Source of the DNA: an uncultured bacterium | GTDB lineage: Bacteria > Fidelibacterota > Marinisomatia > Marinisomatales > UBA1611 | Assembly: GCA_964561495.1 (NCBI GenBank) | Contig: CAZLPW010000006.1 | Coordinates: 1-62,867, forward strand | Direction of reading: 5' to 3' | Length of the DNA stretch: 62,867 nt | Part shown: positions 5,015 through 51,020 of the stretch, one piece after another | Numbering within the stretch: position 1 is the first letter of the stretch | Layout of the letters: every line of letters begins with the position of its first letter | The notes under the pieces: generated by a model | The model's input: the letters and a program-made list of their open reading frames with translations, nothing else | Told to the model about the DNA's origin: nothing | Database searches by the model: none | Translations under genes and position numbers: made by a program

Positions 5015-9483
<4,469 letters not shown>

Positions 9484-16703: not shown

Positions 16704-17633
16704 GTGCAACCTCAAACACTAAATAAGCAAGAAATATTCTCTCATATTTCTATGAAAGATGCTATCAAACAGATGGAATGGGCTTTCAAAAATATATATG
16801 AAAATTCTTCTATTATTCCAATTAGATCCAACATTGATTTTACCAAAACAGAATCCACTTTGATTATGCCTGGGTTTATCCCTAATAATCCCTTTTATAT
16901 TGTTAAAATAATTAACATAAGCTCAGTTCGAAAACCTTCAATTGTTGGGACTGTTAACGTCTTTGATTTTGAATCTGGTAAACTAATTGCTTTAATGGAT
17001 GCCGCTTCTATCACACAAATAAGAACTGGAGCTGCCTCTGGGTTGGCGACAAAATATTTGTCTCATAAAAATTCCAAATATTTGTGTGTTTTCGGTACTG
17101 GTGTGCAAGCTTTCTCTCAAATAGAAGCTATTCTAGAGGTTAGAGATATCTCTTCTATAGGTATAATTAGCACCAGTTATTCTAAAGGGTTCTCCTTTTC
17201 AAAAAAAATTGAAAAAAAATTCTCTATTGAGTGTCGCCCTCTTAAATGTTTTGATATACCACCTAATTCTATTATTTGCACGGCAACTACCTCACAACTA
17301 CCATTATTTTCAGATCCTTATGTTCCTAATGGTTGCCATATTAATGCTATCGGTTCCTACAAGCCAAGCTCAAGAGAAATTCCTTCAGATACTGTTGTTA
17401 GAGGGAAGATCGTTGTTGATGATCTGAAGTCCTGCTCTTTAGAGGCTGGTGACCTTTTAATTCCAGAAAAAGAAGGTAAGTGGTCCATGGGAAAAATTTA
17501 TTGTGAATTAGGTGAGTTGGTATTAGGATTCGCCTCTCCAAGAGAAAATAATAAAGAAATTACTCTATTTAAGTCTGTTGGCAATGTGATACAGGATCTT
17601 GCTATTGTTAACTATATTATGGATCAATTGTAA
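16704..17633 (+). CDS. Ornithine cyclodeaminase / mu-crystallin family NAD(P)H oxidoreductase (candidate delta1-pyrroline-2-carboxylate reductase)
   Basis: 309 aa from a GTG start. The conserved family N-terminus ([23 protein letters not shown]) precedes the first ATG, supporting GTG. Motifs [33 protein letters not shown]. Confidence 0.75.
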
Positions 17634-23813: not shown

Positions 23814-23837
23814 GGAATTGATTTTTCATCTTTAAAA

Positions 23838-24000
23838 TAATAGTAGTTGTTTTATATATTTTATTTTATCCTGTTTAATTTTAATTATGATAACTACCAA
23901 TAATAAAAAAAATATTTAAAAATACTGGTAGTTGACTTGGTAGTTGTATATTTATATTTAAATTATATGGTTTTTTTAATAGTAGTTGTTTAGGTAGTTA
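23838..24000. promoter_or_regulatory. Array of six (T/A)GGTAGTT-type motifs (five direct, one inverted) upstream of the wbpE-like operon
   Basis: Copies at 23841-23849 (TAGTAGTTG), 23892-23899 (inverted AACTACCA), 23926-23934 and 23938-23946 (TGGTAGTTG x2, 12-bp phase), 23980-23988 (TAGTAGTTG) and 23992-24000 (AGGTAGTTA, 12-bp phase). In addition, the 15-mer TAATAGTAGTTGTTT occurs at both 23838-23852 and 23977-23991. Confidence 0.6.
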
Positions 24001-24029
24001 ATAAAGAATTTTAAAAGTTTTATGTAATT

Positions 24030-25145
24030 ATGCAGTTTATTGATCTAGGTGCTCAACAAAAAAGAATTCGCTCTAATATCCAAAAAAGGATATGCGATGT
24101 TTTGGATCATGGAAAGTATATTATGGGGCCAGAGGTTTATGAGTTAGAATCTAAATTGGCTGAATATGTTGGAAGAAAACACTGCGTTTCTTGTTCATCG
24201 GGTACTGATGCTCTTCTTATTCCATTGATGGCAAAAAATATTGGTGTTGGCGATGCTGTGATAACTACACCATTTACCTATATCGCTACCGCTGAAGTAA
24301 TTAAACTATTAGGTGCTACTCCTATTTTTGTTGATATTTATACTGATACATTCAATATTAATCCAGAAGGTATTCCTAATGCAATAAAACATGCTAAAGA
24401 ATTGGGTCTCAAAACAAAAGCCATAATTCCTGTTGATCTATTTGGCCTTCCTGCCAGATTCCGCTTAATAGAAGAGTATTCTTTGAAGTATGATCTTTTT
24501 TTAATTGAAGATGCTGCTCAGGGATTTGGTGGATCTATAAGAGGTAAAAAAGCTGGGTCTTTTGGCCATTGCTCATCCACATCTTTCTTTCCTGCTAAAC
24601 CCTTAGGCTGTTACGGGGATGGAGGGGCCATTTTTACTGATGATGATGAACTTGCAACCATAATGAGGTCAATTAGAGCCCATGGGGGAGGTGAAGATAA
24701 ATATGATAATGTTAGGCTTGGGATTAATGGGAGGCTTGATACTATACAAGCTGCCATTTTACTTGAGAAATTAACAATATTTGAAGAAGAGGTAAAACTG
24801 AGGAACCAAATAGCTTTATTTTATTTAAATAATTTAAAATCAAGTTTTAAAAATCCATTTGTACCTAACAAATATAAATCGTGTTGGGCTCAATTTTCAA
24901 TTGTTGCTAATTCTAAAGTTGAGAAAGAAGCATGTACTAATTTGTTAAATATAAATGGTATACCTACTATGAATTATTACCCAATCCCTTTGCATTTACA
25001 AAAGGTTTTTTCATACCTAGGTTATAAAAAAACTCAATTTACTATAACTGAAAAAATTTCTGATACTGTTTTTTCTATTCCTATGCATCCATATTTAAAA
25101 GAATCTGATCAAAGCATAATTGTGGATATAATAAATGAATTCTAA
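24030..25145 (+). CDS. wbpE: DegT/DnrJ/EryC1-family sugar aminotransferase (WbpE/WlbC-like UDP-2-acetamido-2-deoxy-3-oxo-glucuronate aminotransferase)
   Basis: 371 aa. The N-terminus MQFIDLGAQQKRI...HGKYIMGPEV.ELE..LAEYVG.KHCVSCSSGTDAL parallels WbpE. Operon context includes WbpB/D/A-like genes. Confidence 0.72.
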   Translation: MQFIDLGAQQKRIRSNIQKRICDVLDHGKYIMGPEVYELESKLAEYVGRKHCVSCSSGTDALLIPLMAKNIGVGDAVITTPFTYIATAEVIKLLGATPIFVDIYTDTFNINPEGIPNAIKHAKELGLKTKAIIPVDLFGLPARFRLIEEYSLKYDLFLIEDAAQGFGGSIRGKKAGSFGHCSSTSFFPAKPLGCYGDGGAIFTDDDELATIMRSIRAHGGGEDKYDNVRLGINGRLDTIQAAILLEKLTIFEEEVKLRNQIALFYLNNLKSSFKNPFVPNKYKSCWAQFSIVANSKVEKEACTNLLNINGIPTMNYYPIPLHLQKVFSYLGYKKTQFTITEKISDTVFSIPMHPYLKESDQSIIVDIINEF

Positions 25146-26094
25146 AAATATTTGTGTTGTTGGCGCGGGATATTGGGGAAAAAATCATTTACGAACTTTA
25201 AATAATTTGGGTGTGTTATCTGGCGTAGTTGAGAATAATAGTGATGTGCTAGGAGAAATACTAAATGAATATTCAAATATCAAAGGGTTTTCTTCTATTG
25301 AAGAGTCATTAATTGATGATTCTTTCGATGGGTATACTATTGCTACTCCAGCGGAAACGCATTTTGATTTAGCAAAAAAAGTTATATTGTCTAAGAAGCA
25401 TGTTTTGGTTGAAAAACCTTTAGCGCTGAATATACAAGATGTGCAACAATTAATTAGCCTTTCAGAAAAAAATTCGGTAAGGCTTATGGTTGGGCATGTA
25501 TTATTATTTCACCCAGCTATAAGGAAAATAAAAGAAATAATAAAGAGTGGAGCTATAGGAAGGCTCCAATATCTTTATAGTAATCGCTTAAATTTAGGAC
25601 AAGTAAGGACTGAGGAAAATGTGTTTTGGAGTCTTGCGCCTCATGATATTGCCATTTTTCAATATTTTACGGAAACATACCCGCTAAAGATTCAGGCTAA
25701 TGGTAGCACATTTTTGCAAAAAGGGATACCAGACTCTACTTTGACTCAGTTAGAATATAAAAAAAATATCAAAGCTCATATATTTGTAAGTTGGTTGCAT
25801 CCATTCAAAGAGCACCGCCTTGTTGTTGTTGGGTCAGATGGTATGATTTCTTTTGAAGACTCTATGGAGGGGAAACCATTGAAGCTGTATTCCAAAGGTA
25901 TTATATTCAATAATAAGATACCAGAAAAAGTAGATGGCCCTGTAGAATTAATTGATTATGAAAAAAAAATGCCTTTGACTGAAGAGCTTTCTTGTTTTAT
26001 AGAAAGTTTTGATGGAGGGAACATTTCTTCAGTTGATGGGTTTCATGCGTTAGAGGTGGTTAGGATACTAGTTGAAGCAAGTAGGCAATTATAA
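25135..26094 (+). CDS. wbpB: Gfo/Idh/MocA-family oxidoreductase (WbpB/WlbA-like)
   Basis: 319 aa. Motifs ICVVGAGYWGKNH, VLVEKPLAL. Located between the WbpE-like and WbpD-like genes. Confidence 0.68.
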   Translation: MNSKNICVVGAGYWGKNHLRTLNNLGVLSGVVENNSDVLGEILNEYSNIKGFSSIEESLIDDSFDGYTIATPAETHFDLAKKVILSKKHVLVEKPLALNIQDVQQLISLSEKNSVRLMVGHVLLFHPAIRKIKEIIKSGAIGRLQYLYSNRLNLGQVRTEENVFWSLAPHDIAIFQYFTETYPLKIQANGSTFLQKGIPDSTLTQLEYKKNIKAHIFVSWLHPFKEHRLVVVGSDGMISFEDSMEGKPLKLYSKGIIFNNKIPEKVDGPVELIDYEKKMPLTEELSCFIESFDGGNISSVDGFHALEVVRILVEASRQL

Positions 26095-26095
26095 A

Positions 26096-26599
26096 ATGAA
26101 AAGTTTAAAATATTTTGTACATGATTCTTCATTCGTTGATAAAAATGTTTCAATAGGAGAAGGAACCAAAGTCTGGCATTTCTCACACATCCAGTCTGGT
26201 TCAAGATTGGGCAAAAATTGTGTCCTTGGGCAAAATGTAAATATAGCTAACAATGTAAAAATTGGGAATTACGTGAAAATACAAAATAATGTTTCTGTTT
26301 ATGAAGGTGTTGAATTGGAAGATTATGTATTCTGTGGTCCTTCAATGGTATTTACTAATGTTAAAATCCCTAGATCGGAATTTCCTCAGCGAGGCAGTGA
26401 TTATTATAAAAAAACACTTGTAAGGAAATCGGCTAGTATTGGTGCTAATGCAACAATAATTTGTGGTGTTACAATTGGCAAATATTCTTTAATTGGATCT
26501 GGATCGGTTGTAACAAAAGATGTGCCTGACTACTCTCTTGTTTTAGGGAATCCAGCCAAAATTATTTGTGAAATCGATAAATACGGTAATCGTATTTAA
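26096..26599 (+). CDS. wbpD: Left-handed beta-helix N-acetyltransferase (WbpD/WlbB-like)
   Basis: ATG at 26096 lies just after the wbpB-like stop (26092-26094). The track's TTG at 26072 would overlap it. Hexapeptide repeats are present (IGEGTKVWHFSHI, LGQNVNIANNVKIGNYVKIQNNVSV). Confidence 0.7.
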   Translation: MKSLKYFVHDSSFVDKNVSIGEGTKVWHFSHIQSGSRLGKNCVLGQNVNIANNVKIGNYVKIQNNVSVYEGVELEDYVFCGPSMVFTNVKIPRSEFPQRGSDYYKKTLVRKSASIGANATIICGVTIGKYSLIGSGSVVTKDVPDYSLVLGNPAKIICEIDKYGNRI

Positions 26600-26616
26600 A
26601 AAATATTTTTTTAAAA

Positions 26617-27906
26617 GTGAAAAAAGATACAAAAATAGCTATAATTGGTTTGGGCTATGTAGGTTTACCATTAGCCATAGAGTTCAGTAAGTATTTTAGT
26701 GTAATCGGGTTTGATTTATCTGAAAAAAGGGTTGAAGATTTAAAAAGCGGCTTGGACATTAATAAGCAAATAAAAAAAGAAAGATTATTTCATTCACAGA
26801 ATCTTTTATTTTCTTCAAATATAAAAAGTATTTCTAAATCAAATGTATTTATTGTTACCGTCCCTACTCCTGTAGATATTCATAATATTCCAGATTTATC
26901 ACCGCTAAAATTAGCTTCAGAGATGGTTGGGGATTTTCTTAAGGAAGGTGATATGGTAATTTACGAGTCAACAGTTTATCCTGGGGCAACTGAAGAAATT
27001 TGTGTACCTATATTAGAAAAAAAATCATGTCTTAAGTATAATGCCGAATTTTTTTGTGGCTATAGCCCTGAAAGGATTAATCCAGGTGATAAAAAACACG
27101 GTATAACTAATACTATAAAAATAACTTCAGGTTCAAATTCCAGAGCTGCCAAATTTGTTGATGATCTGTATAAGAAAATTGTGAAAGTAGGTACTCATCC
27201 AGCTGGTTCAATACGTGTAGCAGAGGCCGCAAAAGTAATTGAAAATGTTCAAAGGGATGTCAATATAGCCTTAGTCAATGAATTAGCTATTATATTTAAT
27301 AAACTTGGGATTGATAGTAATGAAGTGTTTAAAGCGGCTGAAACAAAATGGAATTTCATGCCTTTTAGGCCAGGCTTAGTTGGTGGGCATTGTATTAGCG
27401 TAGATCCGTATTATCTTACCCACAAAGCCACTGAGGTCGGATATAAGCCTGATGTTATACTTGCAGGTAGAAGAATTAATGAAGGCATGGGCTCCTATAT
27501 TGCAGATGTAGCAATCTCTGAAATGACAAAACAGAGCATAAATCCAATAGATGCAAGTGTCGCGATACTTGGTATTACATTCAAAGAAAATTGTCCTGAT
27601 ATACGGAATACTAAGGTAGTTGATATATTTTATAAACTTAAAGATTTTAAATCGAAAATATTTGTAAATGATCCATGGGCAGATAAGAAAGAGGTGAAAA
27701 ATGTACTTAATATTGATTTAGTCGATTTGAAAAAAATTAATAAGGTTCATTGTCTAATTATTTGTGTAGCGCACGATGAATATAAAAAAATAGATATTGA
27801 TTCTTGGAAAGATATGGTTGTTGAGAATGGAGTAGTGATAGATGTTAAATCAATTTTTAACAAGTTATATTTTTCGAGCATTCAAATTACTCATAAGAGA
27901 ATATGA
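26617..27906 (+). CDS. wbpA: UDP-N-acetyl-hexosamine 6-dehydrogenase (WbpA/TviB/WecC family nucleotide-sugar dehydrogenase)
   Basis: 429 aa from a GTG start. Motifs IAIIGLGYVGLPLAIEF, YSPERINPGD, GGHCISVDPYYL (catalytic Cys). Confidence 0.75.
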   Translation: MKKDTKIAIIGLGYVGLPLAIEFSKYFSVIGFDLSEKRVEDLKSGLDINKQIKKERLFHSQNLLFSSNIKSISKSNVFIVTVPTPVDIHNIPDLSPLKLASEMVGDFLKEGDMVIYESTVYPGATEEICVPILEKKSCLKYNAEFFCGYSPERINPGDKKHGITNTIKITSGSNSRAAKFVDDLYKKIVKVGTHPAGSIRVAEAAKVIENVQRDVNIALVNELAIIFNKLGIDSNEVFKAAETKWNFMPFRPGLVGGHCISVDPYYLTHKATEVGYKPDVILAGRRINEGMGSYIADVAISEMTKQSINPIDASVAILGITFKENCPDIRNTKVVDIFYKLKDFKSKIFVNDPWADKKEVKNVLNIDLVDLKKINKVHCLIICVAHDEYKKIDIDSWKDMVVENGVVIDVKSIFNKLYFSSIQITHKRI

Positions 27907-27977
27907 TATATTATTGTACTATGCAAATTAATCTGTTATTTGGGTTATTTGAATTTTAAAGGGTCAGTCAGTTTTTA

Positions 27978-29657
27978 ATGAGCAAAAAATTTAAGCCTCC
28001 ATCAAATTTAACTGCAATCAAAAACGATTCTTTAAAATACCCTTCGTTGGTACTTACAGGTCGGCAAGTATGTGATTTGGAATTATTGATGAATAAAGGT
28101 TTTAGGCCTTTAAAAGGTTTCATGAATAGACAAGATTATTTTTCTGTATTAAATAACATGAGATTATCAAATGGGCTTTTATGGCCTATCCCTATTATCT
28201 TAGATGTTAATAAAAAAATTGGAGAATCATTTTGCGTTGGTGAAAAGTTGACTTTAAAAAATCAAGAAGGGTTCCCATTAGCTATTCTCAATATTAATGA
28301 TATTTGGAAACCGAACTATAATGAGGAGGCTCATTTGGTTTATGGTACAACTGATCCATCTCATCCTGGAGTATCGTATATACTTAATCGTAATGAAGTA
28401 TATTGTCTGGGTGGTGAAATTGACAATATTTCTCTCCCTTATCATTATGACTTCCAAAAAGATAGGCACACTCCAAAAGCCTTAAAAAAAATATTTAAAG
28501 ATAAAAATTGGGATGAAGTTGTTGCATTTCAAACCCGTAACCCTATGCATAAGGCACATGTAAAAATGACTCTAGAAGCGATAAGGGATTTAAAAGCTAA
28601 ATTATTAATACATCCAGTGATTGGTGAAACAAAACCTGGAGATATTGATTATTTTACTAGGGTAAGGTGTTATAAAATGATTATGGGTGAGTATCGTACC
28701 AATACCGCGATATTGAGTCTTTTACCTTTGTCAATGCGAATGGCAGGCCCAAGAGAGGCAATTTGGCATGCTCTAATTAGAAAAAACTATGGTTGTACTC
28801 ATTTGATAGTAGGTAGAGATCATGCTGGGCCAGGTGTTGATTCTAGGGGATCGTCCTTTTATGGACCATATGATGCGCAAAATCTACTAGAGAAATATCA
28901 AAACGAAATTGGTATTAATATAGTTCAATTTAAGACAATGGTCTATGTTCCTAGCTTAAATAAGCACATGAAATTGGAAAAAATTAATAAAAAAGAAGAA
29001 TATAAAAACCTTTCTGGAACAGAGATGCGTAAACTACTTGATAAAGGATTAAAAATACCCAATTGGTTTACATTTGAAAATGTTGCAGAAGAGCTAAGAA
29101 AGAGCACTCCTCCAATACACAAAAGAGGATTTACTGTTTTTTTTACTGGGCTATCTGGTTCTGGAAAGTCAACTCTTGCAAATGGTTTAATGATAAAACT
29201 GCTTGAGGAGGGGAGTAGATCTGTTTCTTTATTGGATGGAGATATTATCAGAACAAATTTATCAAGTGAGTTAGGTTTTTCTAAAAATCATCGTTCTATT
29301 AATGTTAGACGTATTGGATTTGTAGCAAGTGAAATAACAAAAAATGGTGGAGTTGCCATATGTGCTCCTATAGCACCCTATGAGGCTGATAGGCTTGCCA
29401 ATAGACAAATAATCTCAAAGTATGGTATATTTATTGAGGTTTATGTAAGTACTCCTTTGGAAATATGCGAGGAGCGTGATTCTAAGGGATTATATGAATT
29501 AGCTAGGAAAGGTGAATTGAAAGAATTTACAGGTATTTCAGATCCATATGAAAAACCAAATAATCCTGATATATCCATTAATTCAAGTGGTCTTTCTCCT
29601 GATAAGCTAGTTGAAAAAATCTATAGGAGTATCAAAAACCTTGGGTTAGTAAAATAG
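27978..29657 (+). CDS. sat-cysC: Bifunctional sulfate adenylyltransferase / adenylylsulfate kinase (PAPS synthesis)
   Basis: 559 aa. ATP-sulfurylase motifs FQTRNPMHKAH and VGRDHAGPG. The C-terminal APS kinase is intact: FFTGLSGSGKSTLA, LLDGDIIR, NVRRIGFVA, EVYVSTPLEICEERDSKGLY. Confidence 0.9.
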   Translation: MSKKFKPPSNLTAIKNDSLKYPSLVLTGRQVCDLELLMNKGFRPLKGFMNRQDYFSVLNNMRLSNGLLWPIPIILDVNKKIGESFCVGEKLTLKNQEGFPLAILNINDIWKPNYNEEAHLVYGTTDPSHPGVSYILNRNEVYCLGGEIDNISLPYHYDFQKDRHTPKALKKIFKDKNWDEVVAFQTRNPMHKAHVKMTLEAIRDLKAKLLIHPVIGETKPGDIDYFTRVRCYKMIMGEYRTNTAILSLLPLSMRMAGPREAIWHALIRKNYGCTHLIVGRDHAGPGVDSRGSSFYGPYDAQNLLEKYQNEIGINIVQFKTMVYVPSLNKHMKLEKINKKEEYKNLSGTEMRKLLDKGLKIPNWFTFENVAEELRKSTPPIHKRGFTVFFTGLSGSGKSTLANGLMIKLLEEGSRSVSLLDGDIIRTNLSSELGFSKNHRSINVRRIGFVASEITKNGGVAICAPIAPYEADRLANRQIISKYGIFIEVYVSTPLEICEERDSKGLYELARKGELKEFTGISDPYEKPNNPDISINSSGLSPDKLVEKIYRSIKNLGLVK

Positions 29658-29705
29658 CTTTGCTATGTGTTTTAATTATTAAACTGTATATAATGGTAAG
29701 TTTTT

Positions 29706-30251
29706 ATGTTTGTAGAACAATCTATCTTAAAAGAAGTTAAAATAATAAAGCCTCAGATTCACACTGATGAAAGGGGTAGTTTTTTGGAGCTATTTAAATC
29801 ATCAAATTTTAAGAAATTTGGGTTGCCTCATAAATTTGTTCAAGAAAACCAAGTCTTTTCTAAGAAGGGGGTTTTAAGAGGCCTGCATTACCAATTGAAT
29901 TATCCGCAGGGTAAACTAGTCAGATGTATAACAGGCGCTATTCTTGATGTTGTTGTTGATATTAGAAAAGGATCGCCTAATTTTGCTAAATTTACTATTA
30001 TTGAAATATCAGCTGAAAACCAGATTTCTGTTTATGTCCCTGAGGGTTTTGCCCATGGTTATATAGTTAAATCTAACGAATCTGTAGTCTTGTACAATTG
30101 CACCAGTGAGTATAATCCCGAAGATGAATATGGAATTATTTGGAATGACTCAAGAATAAATATTAATTGGGGTAATCAAAGTCCAGTTGTATCAAAAAAA
30201 GACTCGTGTTTGCCCTCTCTTTCCAATCAAAATTTTTTACCAGTATATTAA
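29706..30251 (+). CDS. rfbC: dTDP-4-dehydrorhamnose 3,5-epimerase
   Basis: 181 aa. Motifs DERGSFLE, RGLHYQ, PEGFAHGY. Confidence 0.9.
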   Translation: MFVEQSILKEVKIIKPQIHTDERGSFLELFKSSNFKKFGLPHKFVQENQVFSKKGVLRGLHYQLNYPQGKLVRCITGAILDVVVDIRKGSPNFAKFTIIEISAENQISVYVPEGFAHGYIVKSNESVVLYNCTSEYNPEDEYGIIWNDSRININWGNQSPVVSKKDSCLPSLSNQNFLPVY

Positions 30252-30252
30252 A

Positions 30253-31305
30253 ATGGATAGTATATTGGTAACTGGTGGTTGTGGTTTTATAGGTTCAAAC
30301 TTTATTAAATATTATTTAGATAATTATCATAATATAAGTTTAGTCAATCTTGATAAACTGACATACGCTGGAAACTCTAGTAACCTTAAGGGAATCAAGG
30401 ATTTAAACTATACTTTTGTTAATGGAGATATCTGTGATTCTGACCTTGTTAAATCTTTATTTAAAAAATATAATTTCTCAACATTAGTCAATTTTGCTGC
30501 TGAAAGCCATGTAGATAGATCTATAGATGGCCCAGCTGATTTTATAAACACAAATGTTATTGGAACATTAAATTTACTAGAGCAAGCTAGGCATTTTTTC
30601 GATTCAAAAAAAAATCCTAAGAAATTTAAATTTATTCATATATCTACTGATGAGGTATATGGTTCTTTGGGTGAAAAAGGCAGCTTTTCAGAGGAGAGTC
30701 CTTTTCAGCCTAATTCGCCTTATTCTGCGTCGAAGGCTAGTTCTGATCATTTGGTGAAGTCATGGTATAAAACATTTGGGTTGCCTACTTTAATTACAAA
30801 TTGTTCTAATAATTATGGACCATACCAATTTCCTGAAAAACTAATTCCTCTTACGATTATTAATTGTATTGAGGACAATCCCTTGCCTGTATATGGTGAC
30901 GGAAGAAATATACGAGATTGGTTATATGTAGATGATCATTGTAAAGCAATTGATTTGATATCGAAAAATGGAGTTGTAGGTGAGACTTACAATATTGGTG
31001 GTTTGAGTGAGTTAACTAATATTGATGTTGTAAAAAAAATTTGTAGCATGTTAGATATTATATCTCCAAAGAAAGATGGAACTAGTTATTCAAAATTAAT
31101 AACTTTTGTACAAGATAGGCCTGGTCATGACAGGAGATATTCGGTCAATATAGATAAGATTCAAAAAAAAATGAGTTGGACTCCAGAAGAATCATTTGAT
31201 AGCGGAATAGAAAAGACAATTAAATGGTATTTAAATAATAAAAGTTGGTGGAAAAGTCTCAAGGGGAAATATAATCAACAAAGACTTGGGGTTATAAAAA
31301 AATGA
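30253..31305 (+). CDS. rfbB: dTDP-glucose 4,6-dehydratase
   Basis: Start at ATG 30253 ([17 protein letters not shown]). The track's 30187 start overlaps rfbC and adds a non-homologous leader. Motifs [25 protein letters not shown]. Confidence 0.92.
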
Positions 31306-32171
31306 AAGCAATAATTCTTGCAGGCGGTAGTGGAACTCGATTGTATCCAACTACCATCGTTGTTTCTAAGCAACTTATGCCGATATTTGATAAACCAATG
31401 ATTTATTATCCTTTATCTACTATTATGCTATCTGGGATAAGGGAAATTTTGATTATTTCATCGCCCTTTGATTTGCCGTTATATGAAAAATTATTAGGAT
31501 CGGGTGATGAATTGGGGCTAAGGATATCATACGCAATTCAGCCTAGTCCAGATGGATTGGCACAAGCTTTTTTAATCGGGGAAAGTTTTATCGGAAAAGA
31601 TAATGTCGCTCTTATTCTTGGGGATAATATTTTTTATGGTCATGGCATGGCTAAAACTCTCCAGTCTTGTGTTAATAAAGTTCAGTCTAAAAATACTGCT
31701 ACAGTTTTTGGGTATAATGTGAAAAATCCAGAAGATTATGGTGTTGTGACATTTGATGAAAAAAACAAGGTAACTGATATTGTTGAAAAGCCAGATCATC
31801 CAAAATCTAACTATGCAGTTACAGGGCTTTATTATTACCCAAATGATGTAGTGGAAATAGCAAAAAAAGTTAAACCTTCGAATCGAGGAGAGCTAGAAAT
31901 CACTTCGGTAAACAAAAGATTTTTAGATCAAGGTAGGCTAAATGTTGAAATTATGGGCCGTGGTTACGCTTGGTTAGATACTGGAACAATTGAGTCGATG
32001 TATGCTGCGTCAAGTTTTATACAAGCAATAGAGGGGAGGCAGGGTCTGAAGGTTGCATGCATTGAAGAAATTGCATTTAAAATGGGATATATTAACCGAT
32101 CAATGTTGAAAAAAAGTGCCTCAAAATATAATAATCAATATGGGCGCTATTTAAAGTCTTTGTTGGTATAA
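31302..32171 (+). CDS. rfbA: Glucose-1-phosphate thymidylyltransferase
   Basis: 289 aa. Motifs [54 protein letters not shown]. Confidence 0.93.
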
Positions 32172-32243
32172 TAACAGCAAGAGTTTGCTAATTAATCATA
32201 ATTTATTTATTGGATAAAAATCTGATTATAGTGTTTTAATTGA

Positions 32244-32346
32244 TGGTAGCTATATGGTAGTTTAGAAAAAACATATAAATTCATTGATTTCAACTTAAAT
32301 TTCATTAGGATAATAATGGCGCAAATGGTAGTTTTAATGGTAGTTG
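32244..32346. promoter_or_regulatory. Second array of four TGGTAG(T/C)T motifs as two phased pairs, upstream of ORF 32374
   Basis: Copies at 32244 (TGGTAGCT) and 32255 (TGGTAGTTT), 11 bp apart. Further copies at 32326 (TGGTAGTTT) and 32338 (TGGTAGTTG), 12 bp apart. The last copy ends 28 nt before ATG 32374, against 30 nt in the first array. Confidence 0.55.
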
Positions 32347-32373
32347 CCCTAGATGGAAAGGAAATTTTAAAAC

Positions 32374-33171
32374 ATGAGCAGTATATATAGAAAAAATAGA
32401 GATGGCTATTTTTATTATCAGACTTATGTATATAATCCTAAGTCAAAAAAGAAAGATAAGAGAATTTTTCATGCTTTGGCGACTAAAAGTGAATCTGAGG
32501 CAAAAATAAAACAGGCCAATTACGATAGAAAATACAAAAGAGCCACCAACAATAAACAGTCTAGCTTTTTTAAGGCTTGGCTTCAAGCAAATAAAAAAAC
32601 CATTCTAACAGTAGCTTTTTCTTCTATATGTACTTTTTTAATTACCCAGAATTTTCAAAAAACACAAGAAAGTTTTCCAAATGCTAAAACCAATTATCAA
32701 TTAGAATCTGTAATAATTGATAAAATTGACGAGGACTACTCTCAAGTAAAAAAAGAAGAACTTCAAAATAAAAAAATACAAATAATTGATAAAAATAAAA
32801 TAGGGGAACAAAAAGAACGAAAACAAAAAATAGTTAAAAATTTGACTATTCCCCAATATAAGATTATGCGAAAAGAACAGCTTTCGGAAGCCTTTGACCA
32901 ATGGAAAATTTTTGTTGTCGTTGAAACTATTCTTGATTCTAAAAGTTTAAGAAACATTTGTAATATGATTTCAAAAGATTATTCTAATTATCAAAACCTA
33001 GTGATTTGTATTTATCTTAACAATGATGTAGGTATGAAAATTGCATTAGGAAGGAAAAATAATTTCAGTCTTGAACAAGAAAAAGATTCATGGTTGGCTA
33101 TGTATACCTATAACTCTGTAGAAGGTGCCTTTTTTGATGATAATCCTGGCCAATATATATGGACCAATTAA
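32374..33171 (+). CDS. Hypothetical single-pass membrane protein with N-terminal integrase-arm/AP2-like putative DNA-binding domain
   Basis: 265 aa. N-terminus IYRKNRDGYFYYQTYVYNPKSKKKDKRIFHALATKSESEAKIKQANYD resembles the lambda Int arm-binding fold (LYIRNNGYYCYRDP...AITEAIQANIE). One TM helix (ILTVAFSSICTFLITQNF), then about 170 aa of unknown domain. No recombinase catalytic domain. Confidence 0.4.
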   Translation: MSSIYRKNRDGYFYYQTYVYNPKSKKKDKRIFHALATKSESEAKIKQANYDRKYKRATNNKQSSFFKAWLQANKKTILTVAFSSICTFLITQNFQKTQESFPNAKTNYQLESVIIDKIDEDYSQVKKEELQNKKIQIIDKNKIGEQKERKQKIVKNLTIPQYKIMRKEQLSEAFDQWKIFVVVETILDSKSLRNICNMISKDYSNYQNLVICIYLNNDVGMKIALGRKNNFSLEQEKDSWLAMYTYNSVEGAFFDDNPGQYIWTN

Positions 33172-33197: not shown

Positions 33198-35882
33198 ATG
33201 TTAAAAAAAATAATTTTGGCAAAATTTTTTATAATTTGTCTAATTAAATCACAAAGCCCTGAACAAATCAAGGCAATAGAAAAAGTTGTCAAAAATAAAG
33301 GAATGTCAAAACAGCAGGTTATAAATGCAGCTAAAACTCAGGGTTATACTGAGGACCAAATTAAAGCTATTGAAACAAAATATAATTCTAGAGATAAATC
33401 TGATAATAATGATGCAATGAAAAATAGTTTTGATGATGATTTAGAAGTTGTGGAATTAGAAGACCCAAATTCCCCTCAAGAAAAAGAAGGAAATTTAGAT
33501 GAAGAAGAAAAATTGGAAATTGAAACTAAAATACAAGAAGCCAGAGAAGCCCCTAGTTACTTTGGTTATGATATTTTCCAACGAGATCCTTCTGCATTTC
33601 AATCTTCATCTGTTGGTGCCGTTGAACCTGATTATCTAATCGGACCAGGTGATGAAATAATTGTAATGCTTTGGGGTGAAACTCAGTTCAGGCAAGTTCT
33701 TACAGTAAATCGAGAAGGTTTTATTTTTATTCCTGAAGTTGGTCAGGTTTTTGTTAATGGACTAAACTTGAATCTACTTGAATCCAAATTATTTCGTGTT
33801 ATGTCTCAGTCTTATGCGAGTTTAAACCCACGCGGTGGAAAATCATCTACATTTCTTGATGTTAGTCTTGGAAACTTAAGACCCCTTCGTATTCAAGTTT
33901 TAGGTGAGGTGGCTCAGCCAGGAGCATATACTGTAAATCCTTCTGCAACTCTTTTTTCTGCTTTGTATTATTTTAATGGTCCTACTACGTTAGGTTCACT
34001 TAGAGATATAAGGCTTATCCGTGGAGGGAAAGAAATTAGCCGAATAGATTTTTATGATTATTTATTTACGGGGAAAAAACCTAAAGATCAAAAATTACAG
34101 CTTGATGATGTTATTTTTATACCAAAAAGAATGAAAACGGTCACGATTCAAGGTGAAATAAATAGGCCAGGAATATATGAGCTGAAGCCCGATGAAACAT
34201 TAAATGATATAATTAAAATGGCTGGAGATTTAAAAATTACGGCTTATATGAATAGAATTCAGATTGATCGTATTGTACCTTTTGATAAGCGAGAAGAGTT
34301 GGGCTTAGAGAGGGTACTTTCAGATATCAATTTAGGAAGTGTAATTAAAAACAATAAAAAATATTATTTGCAAGATGCAGATCACATCCAGATTTTTTCA
34401 ATTTTAGATTCTAGGTTAAATACTGTGCAAATTTCTGGTGCGGTTACAAGGCCAGGTAGCTACGAATTAAAAGATTCATTATCTTTAAATCAATTAATCG
34501 AAAAAGCAGATGGCTTGCTAGGTGATGCTTATTTAAAGCGTGTTGATATTATACGAATCATGCCAGATCTTAAAGAACAATTAATCAAATTAAATCTTGA
34601 AAAAGTAATTTTAGATGATCAAGAGCATAATATTCAATTACAAAATTTAGATAGAGTAAGAATTTTCAGTTTAACAGAGATGGTGTCTCGGAACTCTGTT
34701 GAGATCAGAGGTCATGTTAAAAATCCTGGCAGATATCCTTTGCAAGGCGGAATGCGCATAAGAGATATTATATTTAAATCTGGAGGTTTTGTTGATGGAG
34801 AGTTTTTAAAGAGAACCTATTTAGGTAGAGCAGATTTGATCCGATATGATGAAAATAATATAACTCAAAATATCACCTCTTTTAATTTGGGAGATTTGAT
34901 AAATAATAATAATTATGATTCAAATGTTCTGCTTCTTCCAGGCGATATAGTTAGGATATATCCAAAAACATTATTTAAATCAGCATATGAGGCTACTATT
35001 TTAGGATCAATAAAAGAACCAGGCAGTTTCACTGTGAAGAATAAAATGACTCTTAGAGATTTGATTTTGGAAGCTGGTGGTTTTGACAAGGATGTTTATA
35101 GGTATAGAATTGAAATTTCTAGGATTGATCCAAAAAATAAATCTATTGATGTCTATTCAACCCTTTCTGAAATATTTATTGATAAAGATTTTTTTGAATC
35201 ATTTGCAAGTAGCGAGGATCATGACAATATATCCAAACTTAATCCAATAATAATGCCATATGATATAGTTTTTGTAAGACCAGATCCTAATTTTTCGATG
35301 CAAAGAACTATTTCAATTGAAGGAATGGTAATGTATCCTGGAGTTTATCCACTGCTTAGTCCAAATGAAACAATAAGGGACGTAGTTATAAGGGCAGGGG
35401 GCCCCAATAGTAACGCATACCTTCCCGCATCAAAATTTATAAGAAGTGGTATTGAAGTAAAATTATCTTTAGAAAATATTTATAATGGTAAAGACGATTT
35501 AAATTCAAATTTTAAGGTTGCAAATGGAGATCGGATTATAATTGCAGGTCGCACCAAAATCTTTTCTATCTTTGGAGAAGTCAATAGTCCAGGCCGATAC
35601 CCGCATAATAGAAATAAAAGAGTCAATGACGCTATCAGATTATCTGGAGGATTTACTCCAAATGCAGACAAAAAAAATATTTTTATTACTTTTCCTAATG
35701 GAGATTCTAAAAAATATAACAGATTCTTAAATAATCCTAGGCTAATGGATAGTTCTACTATAACCGTTGGAAGAAAGCCTGATGAAGAGCCTTTTGATCG
35801 TACGGAATATGCCAAAGAACTAACTGCAATTGTTGCTAATATAGCACAAGCAATTTCATTGGTGATTCTTGCAAAAAACTAA
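33198..35882 (+). CDS. wza: Polysaccharide export protein (Wza-like Poly_export domain plus multiple SLBB repeats)
   Basis: 894 aa with a signal peptide. Motif YLIGPGDEIIVMLWGE, and repeated V.I.G.V..PG.Y.L soluble-ligand-binding beta-grasp units throughout. Confidence 0.8.
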   Translation: MLKKIILAKFFIICLIKSQSPEQIKAIEKVVKNKGMSKQQVINAAKTQGYTEDQIKAIETKYNSRDKSDNNDAMKNSFDDDLEVVELEDPNSPQEKEGNLDEEEKLEIETKIQEAREAPSYFGYDIFQRDPSAFQSSSVGAVEPDYLIGPGDEIIVMLWGETQFRQVLTVNREGFIFIPEVGQVFVNGLNLNLLESKLFRVMSQSYASLNPRGGKSSTFLDVSLGNLRPLRIQVLGEVAQPGAYTVNPSATLFSALYYFNGPTTLGSLRDIRLIRGGKEISRIDFYDYLFTGKKPKDQKLQLDDVIFIPKRMKTVTIQGEINRPGIYELKPDETLNDIIKMAGDLKITAYMNRIQIDRIVPFDKREELGLERVLSDINLGSVIKNNKKYYLQDADHIQIFSILDSRLNTVQISGAVTRPGSYELKDSLSLNQLIEKADGLLGDAYLKRVDIIRIMPDLKEQLIKLNLEKVILDDQEHNIQLQNLDRVRIFSLTEMVSRNSVEIRGHVKNPGRYPLQGGMRIRDIIFKSGGFVDGEFLKRTYLGRADLIRYDENNITQNITSFNLGDLINNNNYDSNVLLLPGDIVRIYPKTLFKSAYEATILGSIKEPGSFTVKNKMTLRDLILEAGGFDKDVYRYRIEISRIDPKNKSIDVYSTLSEIFIDKDFFESFASSEDHDNISKLNPIIMPYDIVFVRPDPNFSMQRTISIEGMVMYPGVYPLLSPNETIRDVVIRAGGPNSNAYLPASKFIRSGIEVKLSLENIYNGKDDLNSNFKVANGDRIIIAGRTKIFSIFGEVNSPGRYPHNRNKRVNDAIRLSGGFTPNADKKNIFITFPNGDSKKYNRFLNNPRLMDSSTITVGRKPDEEPFDRTEYAKELTAIVANIAQAISLVILAKN

Positions 35883-35902
35883 AAATATAATTTTTTACCC
35901 TA

Positions 35903-36973
35903 ATGTCTAAAATAAAAGAAAAAATAGAACCTCTTAGCGAAAAACCATCCAAAGGAGATATCCTTTCTTTTTCAGAGATTATACTTACACTAGCAAAAAA
36001 TTTCAAAATAATTATTTTTCTACCTTCTGTTTTATGTGTTCTGCAAATTATATACGTTCAGTTTTTAGCTGCCCCAGTTTTTATTTCCCAAGCAAAAATA
36101 TTATCTTCCTCTAATAGTGGTGTTTCTCAGGCCGCTGGTATTGCTGCTCAATTTGGAATTTCAATACCGCAAATATCAGATGAACAGGAGTGGGTTTATC
36201 CAGAAATAGTGAAAAGCAGAAAAATTTCTAAACTAATGTTAAAAAGGAGGTTTGATACGAATGAATTTGGTTCTCAAAAATTATTACTACAAATTTTGAC
36301 ATACGGAAATAGGCAGCCTGAATTTGGTATCGATACTTTGATCAAGTTTGGTGTGGGAAAGATGCAATCGATGATTGAGATTAAAAAAAATGGAAATTTT
36401 TACGATCTATCTATAAAAGCCAAAGAACCAATTTTTGCGCGAGACTTAGCAACTGCGTTAATTGAAGAACTTGATGCTCATCAAAAAAAGTATAATAAAT
36501 CTAAAACCAGTGAGGCTAGATTATTTATTGAAGAAAGGATTGATGAAACTCGTAAAGAACTAGAATCAGCAGAAGAAAAGTTGAAAAACTTCAGAGATAG
36601 GAATAGGAGAATTGAAAATTCCCCATCATTGCAATTAGAGGAAACTCGCTTGGTTAGAGAGGCCTCTGTTTTAACTGGAGTATACACTACTCTCAAGCAA
36701 CAGTTAGAAACCACAAAAATAGAGGAGGTGAAAGAATCTAATTATGTTATTGTCCTAGACCCACCAGAAGCTCCATTAGATAGAGCTTATCCTAGAAAAA
36801 AAATGATGGTAATTTTTACAGGTATAATTGGTCTATTTCTGGGTGTTGCTTTTGCTTTAATTAGGGGTTATTTAGAGGATAGTAGTTTGCATGATAAAAA
36901 TATTGTCAGAAAAGCAAAAAAAATACTTTTTAATAATATTTTTGATCTTACACCAAATTTTTTGAAAAGATAG
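35903..36973 (+). CDS. wzz: Polysaccharide chain-length determinant (Wzz/PCP family, no kinase domain)
   Basis: 356 aa. TM helices near both termini (IIIFLPSVLCVLQIIYV; MMVIFTGIIGLFLGVAFALI) flank a coiled-coil periplasmic region. It follows wza. Confidence 0.72.
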   Translation: MSKIKEKIEPLSEKPSKGDILSFSEIILTLAKNFKIIIFLPSVLCVLQIIYVQFLAAPVFISQAKILSSSNSGVSQAAGIAAQFGISIPQISDEQEWVYPEIVKSRKISKLMLKRRFDTNEFGSQKLLLQILTYGNRQPEFGIDTLIKFGVGKMQSMIEIKKNGNFYDLSIKAKEPIFARDLATALIEELDAHQKKYNKSKTSEARLFIEERIDETRKELESAEEKLKNFRDRNRRIENSPSLQLEETRLVREASVLTGVYTTLKQQLETTKIEEVKESNYVIVLDPPEAPLDRAYPRKKMMVIFTGIIGLFLGVAFALIRGYLEDSSLHDKNIVRKAKKILFNNIFDLTPNFLKR

Positions 36974-38104: not shown

Positions 38105-38292
38105 AACCTAGAAAATTTTTAGAGAATATGCTTTAAAGTGAATCTAAAAATAATTAATATCAAGTAAGTTTCTTGTTCAATTAAATCATCTTTATTTTGG
38201 CGTAAATAAAATTGTAATTTCGGGCTAAATAACCTTTTCAAATACCTATATAGTTCTATATTCAAAAAAATAATTTTCAAGGATTGAAAAAT

Positions 38293-46890: not shown

Positions 46891-46946
46891 CTATTTTCTT
46901 ACTTTTAAATGATTATAAAAAAATTAATGTTTTTAGTATTTGAGAA

Positions 46947-47606: not shown

Positions 47607-47609
47607 TTA

Positions 47610-49943: not shown

Positions 49944-49951
49944 TTTATAGT

Positions 49952-50959: not shown

Positions 50960-51020
50960 TGGATAAATCATAATAAATTGGTTTAATATGCTAATTAATA
51001 ATTTTAATGAATAATTATTA

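What the first reader, a model, noticed from the sequence alone, without database searches (positions are those of the whole stretch)
23838..24000. Six copies of a TGGTAGTT-type motif, arranged as 12-bp phased pairs, in the 216-nt gap preceding the wbpE-like operon
Seen: TGGTAGTTG occurs at 23926 and again at 23938. TAGTAGTTG occurs at 23980 and AGGTAGTTA at 23992. There is another TAGTAGTTG at 23841 and an inverted TGGTAGTT at 23892-23899. The 15-mer TAATAGTAGTTGTTT is duplicated exactly (23838-23852 and 23977-23991). The last copy ends 30 nt before the ATG.

Scanning the window by eye, I found the GGTAGTT core in coding DNA only at about 27614, and I could not scan exhaustively. A 7-mer containing three G in this AT-rich DNA should be rare in about 200 nt, so six copies is far beyond chance. 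The spacing of roughly one helical turn suggests cooperative binding of a protein to one face of the DNA (operator or activator array, or arm-type sites). The only other large gap with this motif heads the next operon (32244-32346).
Basis: seen in the sequence. Interest (0 to 1): 0.7.

Follow-up and report, generated by a model that had tools for sequence, protein, structure and literature searches.

The report
Conserved paired regulator sites before glycan operons
The repeated GGTAGTT boxes are real, and the same paired boxes recur across the uncultured marine phylum Marinimicrobia in front of sugar-coat (polysaccharide) operons; they are most likely docking sites for a regulator, possibly the unusual membrane-anchored protein encoded right beside them.

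Summary
Six GGTAGTT-type boxes lie at 23841-24000 and four more at 32244-32346. That is 10 hits in 418 nt of two gaps, against 61 in the other 62.4 kb (Poisson 2e-11).

The boxes form head-to-tail pairs with an 11-12 bp period. The window comes from a Marinimicrobia (SAR406) glycan locus. In 22 distinct related loci from this phylum, sampled in two ways, such pairs always precede a 250-275-aa family (window ORF 32374-33171) that is always followed by a Wza-like exporter. Pairs also head other sugar-nucleotide operons.

In the 18 loci scanned, 44 pairs are intergenic and 4 coding. The spacing is 12 bp in 32 pairs and 11 bp in 11. All six sites of the reported gap keep their positions in an orthologous gap, although the flanks have diverged.

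In most clades the proximal pair overlaps the -35 of a promoter-like TTGnnn-N16-18-TAnnTT (17 of 18 loci). The window's clade has an extra pair 24-40 nt before the ATG.

ORF 32374 has an invariant N-terminal three-strand-plus-helix domain that resembles phage integrase arm-binding domains (weak scores). It is followed by one membrane helix and a conserved C-terminal domain.

Best reading: phased binding sites for a dedicated regulator, probably this protein. Binding itself is untested.

The parts
23841..23849 (+). Distal single box TAGTAGTTG, inside the exact 15-mer 23838-23852.
   Evidence: The 12-nt block AGTAGTTGTTTT is invariant in the orthologous gap of L150.
23891..23899 (-). Inverted single box (TGGTAGTTA on the minus strand; AACTACCA on the plus strand).
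   Evidence: The block CATGATAACTACCA is invariant in L150. Comparable inverted singles lie about 70-130 bp upstream of the proximal pair in L009, L010, L012, L013 and L156-L158.
23926..23946 (+). Pair A: TGGTAGTTG-ACT-TGGTAGTTG, 12-bp period, ending 84 nt before the ATG at 24030. This is the canonical distance of promoter-proximal pairs in other clades.
   Evidence: Its TTG is followed after 19 nt by TATGGT, read here as a possible weak -10 (inference). The pair is degenerate in L150.
23980..24000 (+). Pair B: TAGTAGTTG-TTT-AGGTAGTTA, 12-bp period, ending 29-30 nt before the ATG. It probably lies in the initially transcribed region.
   Evidence: It is conserved as GGTAGTT-ATAAC-GGTAGTT, 24 nt before the ATG, in L150. 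No promoter-like box follows it.
32244..32263 (+). Pair C: TGGTAGCTA-TA-TGGTAGTTT, 11-bp period, 111 nt before the ATG at 32374.
   Evidence: It sits at the same position and has the same GGTAGCT/GGTAGTT composition in L014 and L015.
32306..32315 (+). Conserved TAGGATAATA box between pairs C and D. Candidate -10 element (inference).
   Evidence: It is the only invariant block besides the motif copies in the three-way alignment.
32326..32346 (+). Pair D: TGGTAGTTT-TAA-TGGTAGTTG, 12-bp period, ending 27-28 nt before the ATG at 32374.
   Evidence: It is conserved 28 nt before the ATG in L014 and L015.
32374..33171 (+). ORF 32374 (265 aa), the candidate cognate regulator. It has an invariant N-terminal three-strand-plus-helix domain (aa 1-58), a membrane helix (aa about 74-97), a disordered linker, and a conserved C-terminal alpha/beta domain (aa 160-262) with two invariant cysteines.
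   Evidence: No Pfam family reaches threshold.
24030..32171 (+). Operon headed by gap 1. It encodes a DegT aminotransferase (WbpE-like), a GFO oxidoreductase, a hexapeptide acyltransferase, a UDP-sugar dehydrogenase, a fused ATP sulfurylase/APS kinase, and rmlC, rmlB and rmlA.
33198..36973 (+). Wza-like exporter (Poly_export plus 7 SLBB domains) and a Wzz/GNVR chain-length protein, co-transcribed with ORF 32374 (inferred).
   Evidence: The exporter follows the ORF 32374 homologue in every locus examined.
17284..17303 (-). Perfect inverted pair (11-bp period) inside the OCD/mu-crystallin ORF. Whether it belongs to the system is uncertain.
   Evidence: It is kept in an 80%-identical orthologue and half-kept in a 72%-identical one.

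Best explanation
The GGTAGTT boxes are double-stranded-DNA binding sites for a dedicated regulator of surface-polysaccharide operons in Marinimicrobia.

Site structure. The functional unit is a head-to-tail pair, consensus wTGGTAGTT-ATAAw-(G/A)GTAGTTG. Its 11-12 bp period places two protein subunits on one face of the helix. Extra pairs and an inverted single box further upstream would allow cooperative or looped binding.

Position. In most clades the promoter-proximal pair overlaps the -35 (the TTG of the second repeat) of a TTGnnn-N16-18-TAnnTT promoter. That is an activator position, like pho boxes. In the window's clade pair A has that position. A further pair (B, D) sits about +3 to +29, just downstream of the likely start site of both operons. 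Occupancy there would repress, giving feedback.

Likely binder. The most likely binder is the product of ORF 32374, the first gene of the exporter operon. It would be a single-pass inner-membrane protein. Its cytoplasmic N-terminal domain has the three-strand-plus-helix shape of integrase arm-binding domains. Its conserved C-terminal domain would face the periplasm and could couple envelope or export status to transcription, as ToxR-type proteins do. The regulator would control its own operon (gap 2) and the precursor operon (gap 1).

What is shown and what is inferred. Shown: the existence, pairing, spacing, enrichment and conservation of the motif, its position relative to promoter-like boxes, its linkage with the gene family, and the predicted fold. 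Inferred: binding, the sign of regulation, membrane topology and the signal. My sub-confidences are about 0.8 that these are protein-binding regulatory sites on DNA, and about 0.45 that ORF 32374 is the binder.
For: Enrichment. 10 hits in 418 nt against 61 in 62.4 kb.

Distribution across 18 Marinimicrobia loci (310 kb).
- 44 pairs are intergenic and 4 coding.
- Spacing is 12 bp in 32 pairs, 11 bp in 11, 10 bp in 1, and 13 bp in none of the intergenic pairs.
- 39 pairs are co-oriented with the genes and 5 are inverted.
- Downstream genes are the ORF 32374 family, DegT, GalE-like epimerases and UDP-sugar dehydrogenase.

Phylogenetic footprints.
- Window, L014 and L015 (regulator 70% and 48% identical) share only the four boxes and one TAGGATA-type box in gap 2.
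- Window and L150 (44% identical) share all six site positions in gap 1.

Linkage with the gene family. 13 species-level genomes found through the ORF all carry the pair upstream. Four loci sampled independently through the exporter also have the ORF and the pairs.

Promoter context. 17 of 18 proximal pairs are followed by TTGnnn-N16-18-TAnn[T/A]T, against 2 of 24 other pairs.

Inverted copies. Conserved inverted singles and inverted pairs fit recognition of duplex DNA.

The protein.
- 25 of the first 62 residues are invariant in the N-terminal alignment, against about 40% identity over the whole protein.
- AlphaFold gives three strands plus a helix at pLDDT 86.
- The best BFVD matches are phage integrases. 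Mx8 Int scores TM 0.74, rmsd 1.8 A over 59 columns, probability 1.0.
- In Mx8 Int the first 65 residues lie upstream of the core-binding domain and begin VGNVYRKKATRYLW (GTG start).
- DUF6538 is the top sub-threshold Pfam match in 17 of 18 members.

No competing regulator. No other DNA-binding or NusG-type domain is found in the 53 window ORFs scanned.
Against: - No binding data exist.
- The fold matches are not statistically significant (E 0.1-0.8). Foldseek against the PDB found nothing, and profile searches against PDB sequences were empty.
- Only about 15 residues separate the N-terminal domain from the membrane helix, which would hold the DNA close to the membrane.
- The gene-motif linkage could simply reflect that this gene is the first gene of a regulated operon.
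- In the window's own clade none of the pairs is followed by the strict promoter-like box, so promoter placement there is inferred from weak boxes only.
- The shared GGTAG core with ops elements of other polysaccharide operons keeps a transcription-elongation reading alive for the pairs near the ATG.
Confidence: 0.5

Rival explanations
1. The boxes are regulator binding sites, but the binder is an unlinked transcription factor encoded elsewhere (for example a response regulator that binds direct repeats). ORF 32374 would then be an export accessory protein that merely sits first in a regulated operon.
For: Direct repeats with a period of about 11 bp overlapping the -35 are the classic target of OmpR/PhoB-type regulators (established knowledge). 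The architecture fits. The DNA-binding assignment of ORF 32374 rests on non-significant fold matches. The gene is always next to the exporter, which also fits a structural role.
Against: No such regulator gene is in the window or in the flanks of the 22 loci. The period is mostly 12 bp, with 11 bp as a variant, which is looser than in response-regulator sites. The extreme conservation of a small, tyrosine- and lysine-rich cytoplasmic domain needs another explanation.
Confidence: 0.27
2. The boxes act during or after transcription. One version is an ops/JUMPStart-like signal in the non-template strand that recruits a specialised NusG paralogue (RfaH- or UpxY-like) to long polysaccharide operons. 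The other version is an RNA element in the 5' leader.
For: The core GGTAG equals ops positions 4-8 (GGCGGTAGCGTG). Substitutions at four of these five positions (G4C, G5A, A7T, G8C) abolish RfaH recruitment, and T6A reduces it about 3-fold (PMC5995543). ops lies in leaders of polysaccharide operons (PMC3438125). 39 of 44 pairs are co-oriented with the genes. In the window's clade pairs B and D lie 24-40 nt before the ATG, probably inside the transcript.
Against: - Conserved inverted copies exist.
- 17 of 18 proximal pairs overlap a -35-like element and so lie upstream of that start site.
- The helical 11-12 bp phasing has no role in an ops mechanism.
- The distance from GGTAG to TG is one base short of ops, and the C3 partner of the ops hairpin is absent.
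- No NusG-type domain is found in the window or in the called genes of the loci.
- Rfam finds nothing.
- Leader folds are no more stable than shuffles, with z-scores of -0.19, +1.59 and 0.02.
Confidence: 0.08
3. Each pair is itself a promoter for an alternative sigma factor with a -24/-12-like geometry (12 bp between two GG elements).
For: TGG-N9-TTGG in pair A superficially resembles TGGCACG-N4-TTGC. The 12-bp period matches the -24/-12 spacing (established knowledge).
Against: The second element is AGTAG in a whole clade (no GG or GC), and the spacing varies between 11 and 12 bp. Both halves are the same 7-mer, whereas the two sigma-54 elements differ from each other. Several pairs occur per region, some of them inverted. 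A sigma-70-like box follows the proximal pairs.
Confidence: 0.04
4. The boxes are recombination sites: arm-type or inverted-repeat sites of an integrase or invertase that flips a promoter (phase variation), or remnants of a mobile element.
For: Tandem direct repeats plus an inverted copy recall integrase arm sites. Polysaccharide promoters are invertible in Bacteroides (established knowledge). The neighbouring protein has an integrase-arm-like domain.
Against: ORF 32374 has no recombinase catalytic domain. No integrase is present in the window. Twenty independent assemblies of four populations show 100% identical upstream regions in one orientation. In gap 1 the inverted box and pair A are only about 27 bp apart. 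The sites are fixed in position across a whole phylum, unlike mobile-element scars.
Confidence: 0.03

Closest known systems
Arm-type sites and N-terminal arm-binding domains of tyrosine integrases (lambda Int, Tn916 Int, Mx8 Int)
   Same: Short (7-10 bp) sites occur as tandem direct repeats about one helical turn apart, with additional inverted copies. The putative binder has a small three-strand-plus-helix domain of about 60 aa at the extreme N-terminus. It begins with the same hYRK...aromatic-strand pattern as Mx8 Int.
   Different: There is no recombinase core-binding or catalytic domain, no core sites and no mobile element. The domain is fused to a membrane helix and a periplasm-type domain. 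The sites sit at promoters of housekeeping glycan operons and are conserved phylum-wide.
ToxR / TcpP / CadC-type membrane-bound one-component transcription regulators
   Same: The proposed architecture is an N-terminal cytoplasmic DNA-binding domain, a single membrane helix and a C-terminal periplasmic domain with conserved cysteines. The targets are direct repeats near the promoter. The regulator is encoded next to the envelope genes it controls.
   Different: The DNA-binding domain is not an OmpR-type winged helix (no Trans_reg_C match). The tether to the membrane is much shorter. No functional data exist.
Pho boxes and other OmpR/PhoB-family direct repeats overlapping the -35
   Same: Two direct repeats sit on one DNA face and abut or replace the -35 of the regulated promoter (17 of 18 loci). 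Further upstream copies are present.
   Different: The period is mostly 12 bp rather than 10-11 bp. The -35 TTG is retained inside the second repeat. No response regulator is linked.
ops / JUMPStart elements with RfaH, and UpxY of Bacteroides capsule loci
   Same: They head long polysaccharide operons, share the GGTAG core, and are mostly co-oriented with the operon. The first gene of the operon is a dedicated regulator candidate, as upxY is.
   Different: See the membership test: inverted copies exist, the pairs overlap a -35-like box, the TG distance is wrong, and no NusG-like protein was found.

Membership tests
ops/JUMPStart-RfaH type antitermination signal | 12-nt consensus GGCGGTAGCGTG, with essential central bases and a TG at positions 11-12. 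| tested here: not met
   The GGTAG core is shared, but the box reads GGTAG-T-TG, one base short. The position of C3 is T/A/G.
ops/JUMPStart-RfaH type antitermination signal | Located in the transcribed leader and read on the non-template strand only. | tested here: not met
   17 of 18 proximal pairs overlap a -35-like TTG upstream of a TAnnTT box. 5 inverted pairs and conserved inverted singles exist. Start sites are inferred, not mapped.
ops/JUMPStart-RfaH type antitermination signal | A specialised NusG paralogue in the genome. | not testable with these tools
   None was found in the window or in the loci fetched. Whole genomes could not be scanned.
Tyrosine-integrase arm-site system | The binder carries core-binding and catalytic (RHRY) domains. 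| tested here: not met
   ORF 32374 gives no Pfam or NCBIfam hit to Phage_integrase. Its C-terminal part is a 100-aa alpha/beta domain beyond a membrane helix.
Tyrosine-integrase arm-site system | N-terminal three-strand-plus-helix arm-binding fold. | tested here: inconclusive
   The topology is as predicted. The top BFVD hits are integrases, but with E 0.1-0.8. DUF6538 matches are sub-threshold in 17 of 18 members. Foldseek against the PDB gives no hit. That DUF6538 is an integrase N-terminal domain is my recollection and was not tested.
ToxR-like membrane-bound regulators | OmpR-type winged-helix DNA-binding domain (Trans_reg_C). | tested here: not met
   No Pfam match, and the fold is three strands plus a helix.
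ToxR-like membrane-bound regulators | Single-pass topology with a cytoplasmic N-terminus and a periplasmic C-terminal domain. | tested here: inconclusive
   One hydrophobic helix at about aa 74-97 is present in all 18 aligned members. Lysines precede the helix, and two invariant cysteines lie in the C-terminal domain. No dedicated topology predictor was available.
OmpR/PhoB-type direct-repeat boxes | Direct repeats with a fixed 10-11 bp period next to the -35, bound by a response regulator. | tested here: inconclusive
   The position is met. The period is 12 bp in 32 pairs and 11 bp in 11. No response regulator is linked.
Sigma-54 (-24/-12) promoter | GG and GC dinucleotides exactly 10 nt apart within TGGCAC-N5-TTGC. 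| tested here: not met
   The second element lacks GC and is AG in one clade. The spacing varies between 11 and 12 bp.
Known structured RNA (Rfam) | A match to a curated covariance model, or a stable conserved fold. | tested here: not met
   No Rfam hit in the window. Leader folds have z-scores of -0.19, +1.59 and 0.02.

The most novel reading that the evidence does not exclude
Marinimicrobia use a previously undescribed class of one-component, membrane-tethered transcription factor. Its DNA-reading head would be an integrase arm-type (AP2-like) domain rather than a helix-turn-helix. Dimers would read 12-bp-phased GGTAGTT pairs. This would couple the state of the envelope or exporter directly to transcription of the precursor and export operons of the cell-surface glycan, activating from the -35-adjacent pair and, in some clades, self-limiting from a pair just downstream of the start site.
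Probability: 0.4. Interest if true: 0.75.

Novelty: new variant of a known kind. Interest (0 to 1): 0.6.

Why it matters
Marinimicrobia (SAR406) are abundant in the dark ocean and oxygen-minimum zones, and none has been cultured. Nothing is known about how they regulate genes. Two literature searches found no description of this motif or of this protein family.

The result gives three things:
- A phylum-wide cis-element with a defined grammar.
- A candidate regulon: surface glycan synthesis and export, including sulfated and phosphonate-bearing sugars that matter for marine carbon and phosphorus cycling.
- A short, testable list of protein-DNA experiments that need only synthetic DNA and a 62-residue domain.

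If ORF 32374 is the binder, it would add a new DNA-binding module to the small set of membrane-bound one-component regulators. It would also be an example of an integrase arm-binding domain recruited for transcription control.

Tried and rejected
1. Metagenome-wide exact scan for GGTAGTT-N5-GGTAGTT. It returned 120 loci, but 110 of 138 matches lie inside long ORFs of unrelated organisms or in eukaryote-like tandem arrays. Only one locus (L092) has the gene family. These are chance hits in a huge collection and are uninformative.
2. Foldseek of the whole ORF 32374 model against the PDB gave only weak hits to the C-terminal domain (a T6SS immunity protein, DUF487). The N-terminal domain against the PDB gave nothing. 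PDB sequence searches with both profiles were empty.
3. PHROGs and NCBIfam scans gave no meaningful hit.
4. An exhaustive HMMER profile search with the N-terminal domain found 304 proteins. All 150 that were listed belong to the same family, so no bridge to integrases is visible at that depth. hhalign against Mx8 Int aligned only 14 residues, at negligible probability (0.55%, E 0.11).
5. The generic sigma-70 consensus scan of gap 1 found no more promoter-like sites than in shuffles. A search for TTG-N-TAnnTT in the other gaps of the window did not yield a house promoter consensus.
6. Invertible-promoter idea: no inverted variant among 20 assemblies.
7. RNA structure in the leaders: not more stable than shuffles. 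Rfam found nothing.
8. Sigma-54 reading: rejected on sequence.
9. The TATAAT-like spacer of many pairs (GGTAGTT-ATAAT-GG) was considered as a -10 element. It is absent from the window's pairs A, B and D and only moderately enriched, so it was not pursued.
It was rebuilt from database proteins.
Full report
THE OBSERVATION

- TGGTAGTTG at 23926 and 23938.
- TAGTAGTTG at 23841 and 23980.
- AGGTAGTTA at 23992.
- The inverted copy at 23892-23899.
- The exact 15-mer at 23838-23852 and 23977-23991.
- The gap is 23814-24029, and the last copy ends 29 nt before the ATG at 24030.

The second gap (32172-32373) holds TGGTAGCT/TGGTAGTT at 32244/32255 and TGGTAGTT twice at 32326/32338.

Allowing one mismatch to TGGTAGTT on both strands, the two gaps (418 nt) hold 10 hits and the other 62.4 kb hold 61. 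The expectation for 418 nt is 0.41 (P = 2.4e-11). Dinucleotide shuffles of gap 1 give a mean of 0.39 hits and never more than 4 in 5000. No other gap of the window has a pair.

The copies are organised as four head-to-tail pairs.
- A: 23926/23938, 12-bp period.
- B: 23980/23992, 12-bp period.
- C: 32244/32255, 11-bp period.
- D: 32326/32338, 12-bp period.
- In addition there is a distal single box (23841) and an inverted single box (23892).

CONTEXT

The window is a 62.9-kb, single-strand, 32% GC glycan locus. Homologues of its proteins carry names from Candidatus Marinimicrobia/Neomarinimicrobiota.

Gap 1 follows a gingipain-like C25 peptidase with a dockerin. It heads an operon that encodes:
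- a DegT (WbpE-like) aminotransferase,
- a GFO oxidoreductase,
- a hexapeptide acyltransferase,
- a UDP-sugar dehydrogenase,
- a fused ATP sulfurylase/APS kinase,
- rmlC, rmlB and rmlA.

Gap 2 heads ORF 32374 (265 aa, no Pfam family), a Wza-like exporter with Poly_export and seven SLBB domains, and a Wzz/GNVR protein.

Pfam scans of 53 window ORFs found enzymes only. There is no helix-turn-helix regulator, no NusG-like protein and no recombinase.

CONSERVATION ELSEWHERE

ORF 32374 has 392 full-length homologues, all 250-275 aa and all unnamed. Thirteen species-level genomes carrying it were fetched, plus closer relatives.

In every locus the gene is followed by the Wza-like exporter. In every locus it is also preceded by GGTAGTT-N4-5-(G/A)GTAGTT pairs.

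To avoid sampling through the candidate itself, I also sampled through the exporter. Four further loci, from contigs of 84-182 kb, all have a 262-269-aa MSSIY... gene just upstream and the same pairs.

Across 18 loci (310 kb; about 26 kb intergenic by a crude mask):
- 44 pairs are intergenic and 4 coding.
- The period is 12 bp in 32 pairs, 11 bp in 11, 10 bp in 1 and 13 bp in none of the intergenic pairs.
- 39 pairs are co-oriented with the downstream genes and 5 are inverted.

Pairs also head other sugar-nucleotide operons: GalE-like epimerase in L003 and L007, UDP-sugar dehydrogenase in L012, and DegT in the window and L150. Where the DegT orthologue is internal to an operon (L010), no motif precedes it. 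The element therefore goes with operon heads, not with a particular gene.

FOOTPRINTS

In gap 2 of the window, L014 (regulator 70% identical) and L015 (48% identical), the only invariant blocks are the four boxes and one TAGGATAATA/TAGTATATTA box. Pair C stays 111-112 nt and pair D 28 nt from the ATG in all three.

In gap 1 of the window and of L150 (44% identical, same C25-DegT synteny), all six sites keep their positions. The distal single box (AGTAGTTGTTTT), the inverted box (CATGATAACTACCA) and pair B are intact. Pair A is degenerate in L150.

The pair consensus is wTGGTAGTT-ATAAw-(G/A)GTAGTTG. The first repeat is usually followed by A and the second by G.

PROMOTER CONTEXT

In 17 of 18 loci outside the window's clade, the pair nearest the regulator gene is followed by TTGnnn-N16-18-TAnn[T/A]T. 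The TTG is the end of the second repeat, and the second box is usually preceded by TG. Only 2 of 24 other pairs show this. The proximal pair ends 60-89 nt before the ATG in these loci.

The pair thus occupies about -33 to -55 of a promoter-like element, an activator position. The implied leader is about 50 nt long.

The window's clade differs.
- Pair A keeps the canonical distance (84 nt) and is followed after 19 nt by a weak TATGGT.
- Pairs B and D (and their orthologues) lie 24-40 nt before the ATG, with no room for a promoter downstream.
- Pair D lies just after the conserved TAGGAT-type box. If that box is the -10, D covers about +6 to +29 and B about +3 to +23. The leader is again about 52-54 nt.

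These start sites are inferences from sequence only.

THE CANDIDATE BINDER

The family alignment shows four regions:
- a nearly invariant N-terminal 55 residues (MSSIYRKGRDGYYYYQTYVYNPxxGKKDKRIFHSLGTK..EAE.KQ..LD.KY),
- a hydrophobic helix at about residues 74-97,
- a variable linker that is modelled with very low confidence,
- a conserved C-terminal domain with two invariant cysteines.

AlphaFold models the N-terminal domain as three antiparallel strands plus a helix (pLDDT 86) and the C-terminal domain as alpha/beta (pLDDT above 90).

Evidence that the N-terminal domain resembles integrase arm-binding domains:
- Foldseek against viral models ranks phage integrases first. Mx8 Int scores TM 0.74, rmsd 1.8 A over 59 columns, probability 1.0. 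Six further named integrases appear among the listed matches. The E-values are only 0.1-0.8, as expected for so small a domain.
- In Mx8 Int the Pfam core-binding domain starts at residue 66. The preceding segment starts VGNVYRKKATRYLW (GTG start), so the match is most likely to the arm-binding N-terminus.
- Pfam DUF6538 is the best, sub-threshold match in 17 of 18 members (best E 3.8e-5). From memory this family sits at the N-terminus of integrases. I could not verify that here.

Evidence that fails to support this:
- Foldseek against the PDB and sequence searches against the PDB found nothing.
- An exhaustive profile search returned 304 proteins, and all 150 that were listed belong to the family itself.

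The fold assignment is therefore suggestive, not established.

MECHANISM I COMMIT TO

The boxes are duplex-DNA binding sites for a dedicated regulator of surface-glycan operons.
- Two subunits bind head-to-tail on one helical face.
- The -35-adjacent pair activates.
- Upstream pairs and the inverted box stabilise binding by cooperativity or looping.
- In the window's clade a pair just downstream of the start site limits expression.
- The most likely binder is ORF 32374. It would act like a ToxR-type membrane-bound regulator, but with an integrase-arm-like head, and would regulate its own export operon and the precursor operon.

I put about 0.8 on 'protein-binding regulatory DNA sites' and about 0.45 on 'ORF 32374 is the binder'.

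RIVALS

(a) An unlinked regulator binds the sites. This cannot be excluded.

(b) An ops/JUMPStart-like elongation signal. This rival is attractive because the GGTAG core equals the essential centre of ops, and ops heads polysaccharide operons. Several results argue against it:
- conserved inverted copies,
- overlap of the proximal pair with a -35-like box,
- the helical phasing,
- a TG one base too close,
- no NusG paralogue in any locus fetched.

(c) A structured leader RNA. No Rfam hit was found, and the folds are no better than shuffles.

(d) A sigma-54-like promoter. Rejected on sequence and on the variable spacing.

(e) Recombination or inversion sites. There is no recombinase. Twenty independent assemblies of four populations are identical and in a single orientation.

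NOVELTY AND SCORE

Operator arrays of phased direct repeats are a known kind. This particular element, its phylum-wide grammar and its linkage to an undescribed membrane protein family are not in the literature I could search.

I rate it a new variant of a known kind, with interest 0.6. If the membrane protein proves to be the binder, that would be a new architecture for a bacterial transcription factor.

Noticed in passing
window 17284-17303 (minus strand), inside ORF 16704-17633: A perfect GGTAGTT-N4-GGTAGTT pair (11-bp period) lies in coding DNA of an ornithine cyclodeaminase/mu-crystallin gene. The two copies are in different reading frames (peptide TATTSQLP). My estimate of the chance expectation is about 0.003 per window. 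Both copies are kept in an 80%-identical orthologue (L162), and one is altered in a 72%-identical orthologue (L163).
   Followed up: partly
window 38486-42035: A phosphonate branch sits inside the glycan locus: PEP mutase fused to a cytidylyltransferase-like domain, a TPP-dependent decarboxylase and an Fe-alcohol dehydrogenase. A similar fusion lies next to the exporter in L156. This suggests phosphonate-decorated surface glycans.
   Followed up: no
window 27978-29657: A fused ATP sulfurylase/APS kinase (PAPS synthesis) lies inside the wbp/rml-type operon and is syntenic in L015 and L149-L151. This hints at a sulfated polysaccharide.
   Followed up: no
window 20514-23813: A gingipain-like peptidase (C25 propeptide, catalytic and Ig-like domains) carries a C-terminal type I dockerin. 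It lies directly upstream of gap 1 and is syntenic in L149, L150 and L163.
   Followed up: no
window 38284-38481: A 65-aa hydrophobic small ORF (TTG start) sits in the 381-nt gap ahead of the phosphonate genes. This gap has no GGTAGTT pair.
   Followed up: no
L011 and L012 (both from MAG SP3097): One genome carries two paralogous regulator-exporter loci, each with its own pairs (11-bp and 12-bp period). If both proteins read the same box, cross-talk between two glycan systems is expected.
   Followed up: no
L001, L002, L004, L005, L006 (about 40% GC clade), 350-690 nt upstream of the regulator gene: Unusually long non-coding regions hold three or four pairs at fixed distances from the ATG: about -450 (only L004 and L006), -350, an inverted pair at -200, and -87. 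The pattern is conserved across five species-level genomes.
   Followed up: partly
L139 about 5885-5900: A 16-nt perfect palindrome (TTGTAAATATTTACAA) overlaps the 3' end of the distal pair.
   Followed up: no
window 30187-30251: The TTG start listed for the rmlB-like ORF overlaps rmlC by 65 nt. The real start is probably the internal ATG that gives MDSILVTGG.
   Followed up: no
window 44754-51722: A block of nonulosonic-acid-type genes is present: 4,6-dehydratase, DegT aminotransferase, PglD-like acetyltransferase, NeuB synthase, WbqC-like protein, plus an acyl-AMP ligase and a short-chain dehydrogenase.
   Followed up: no
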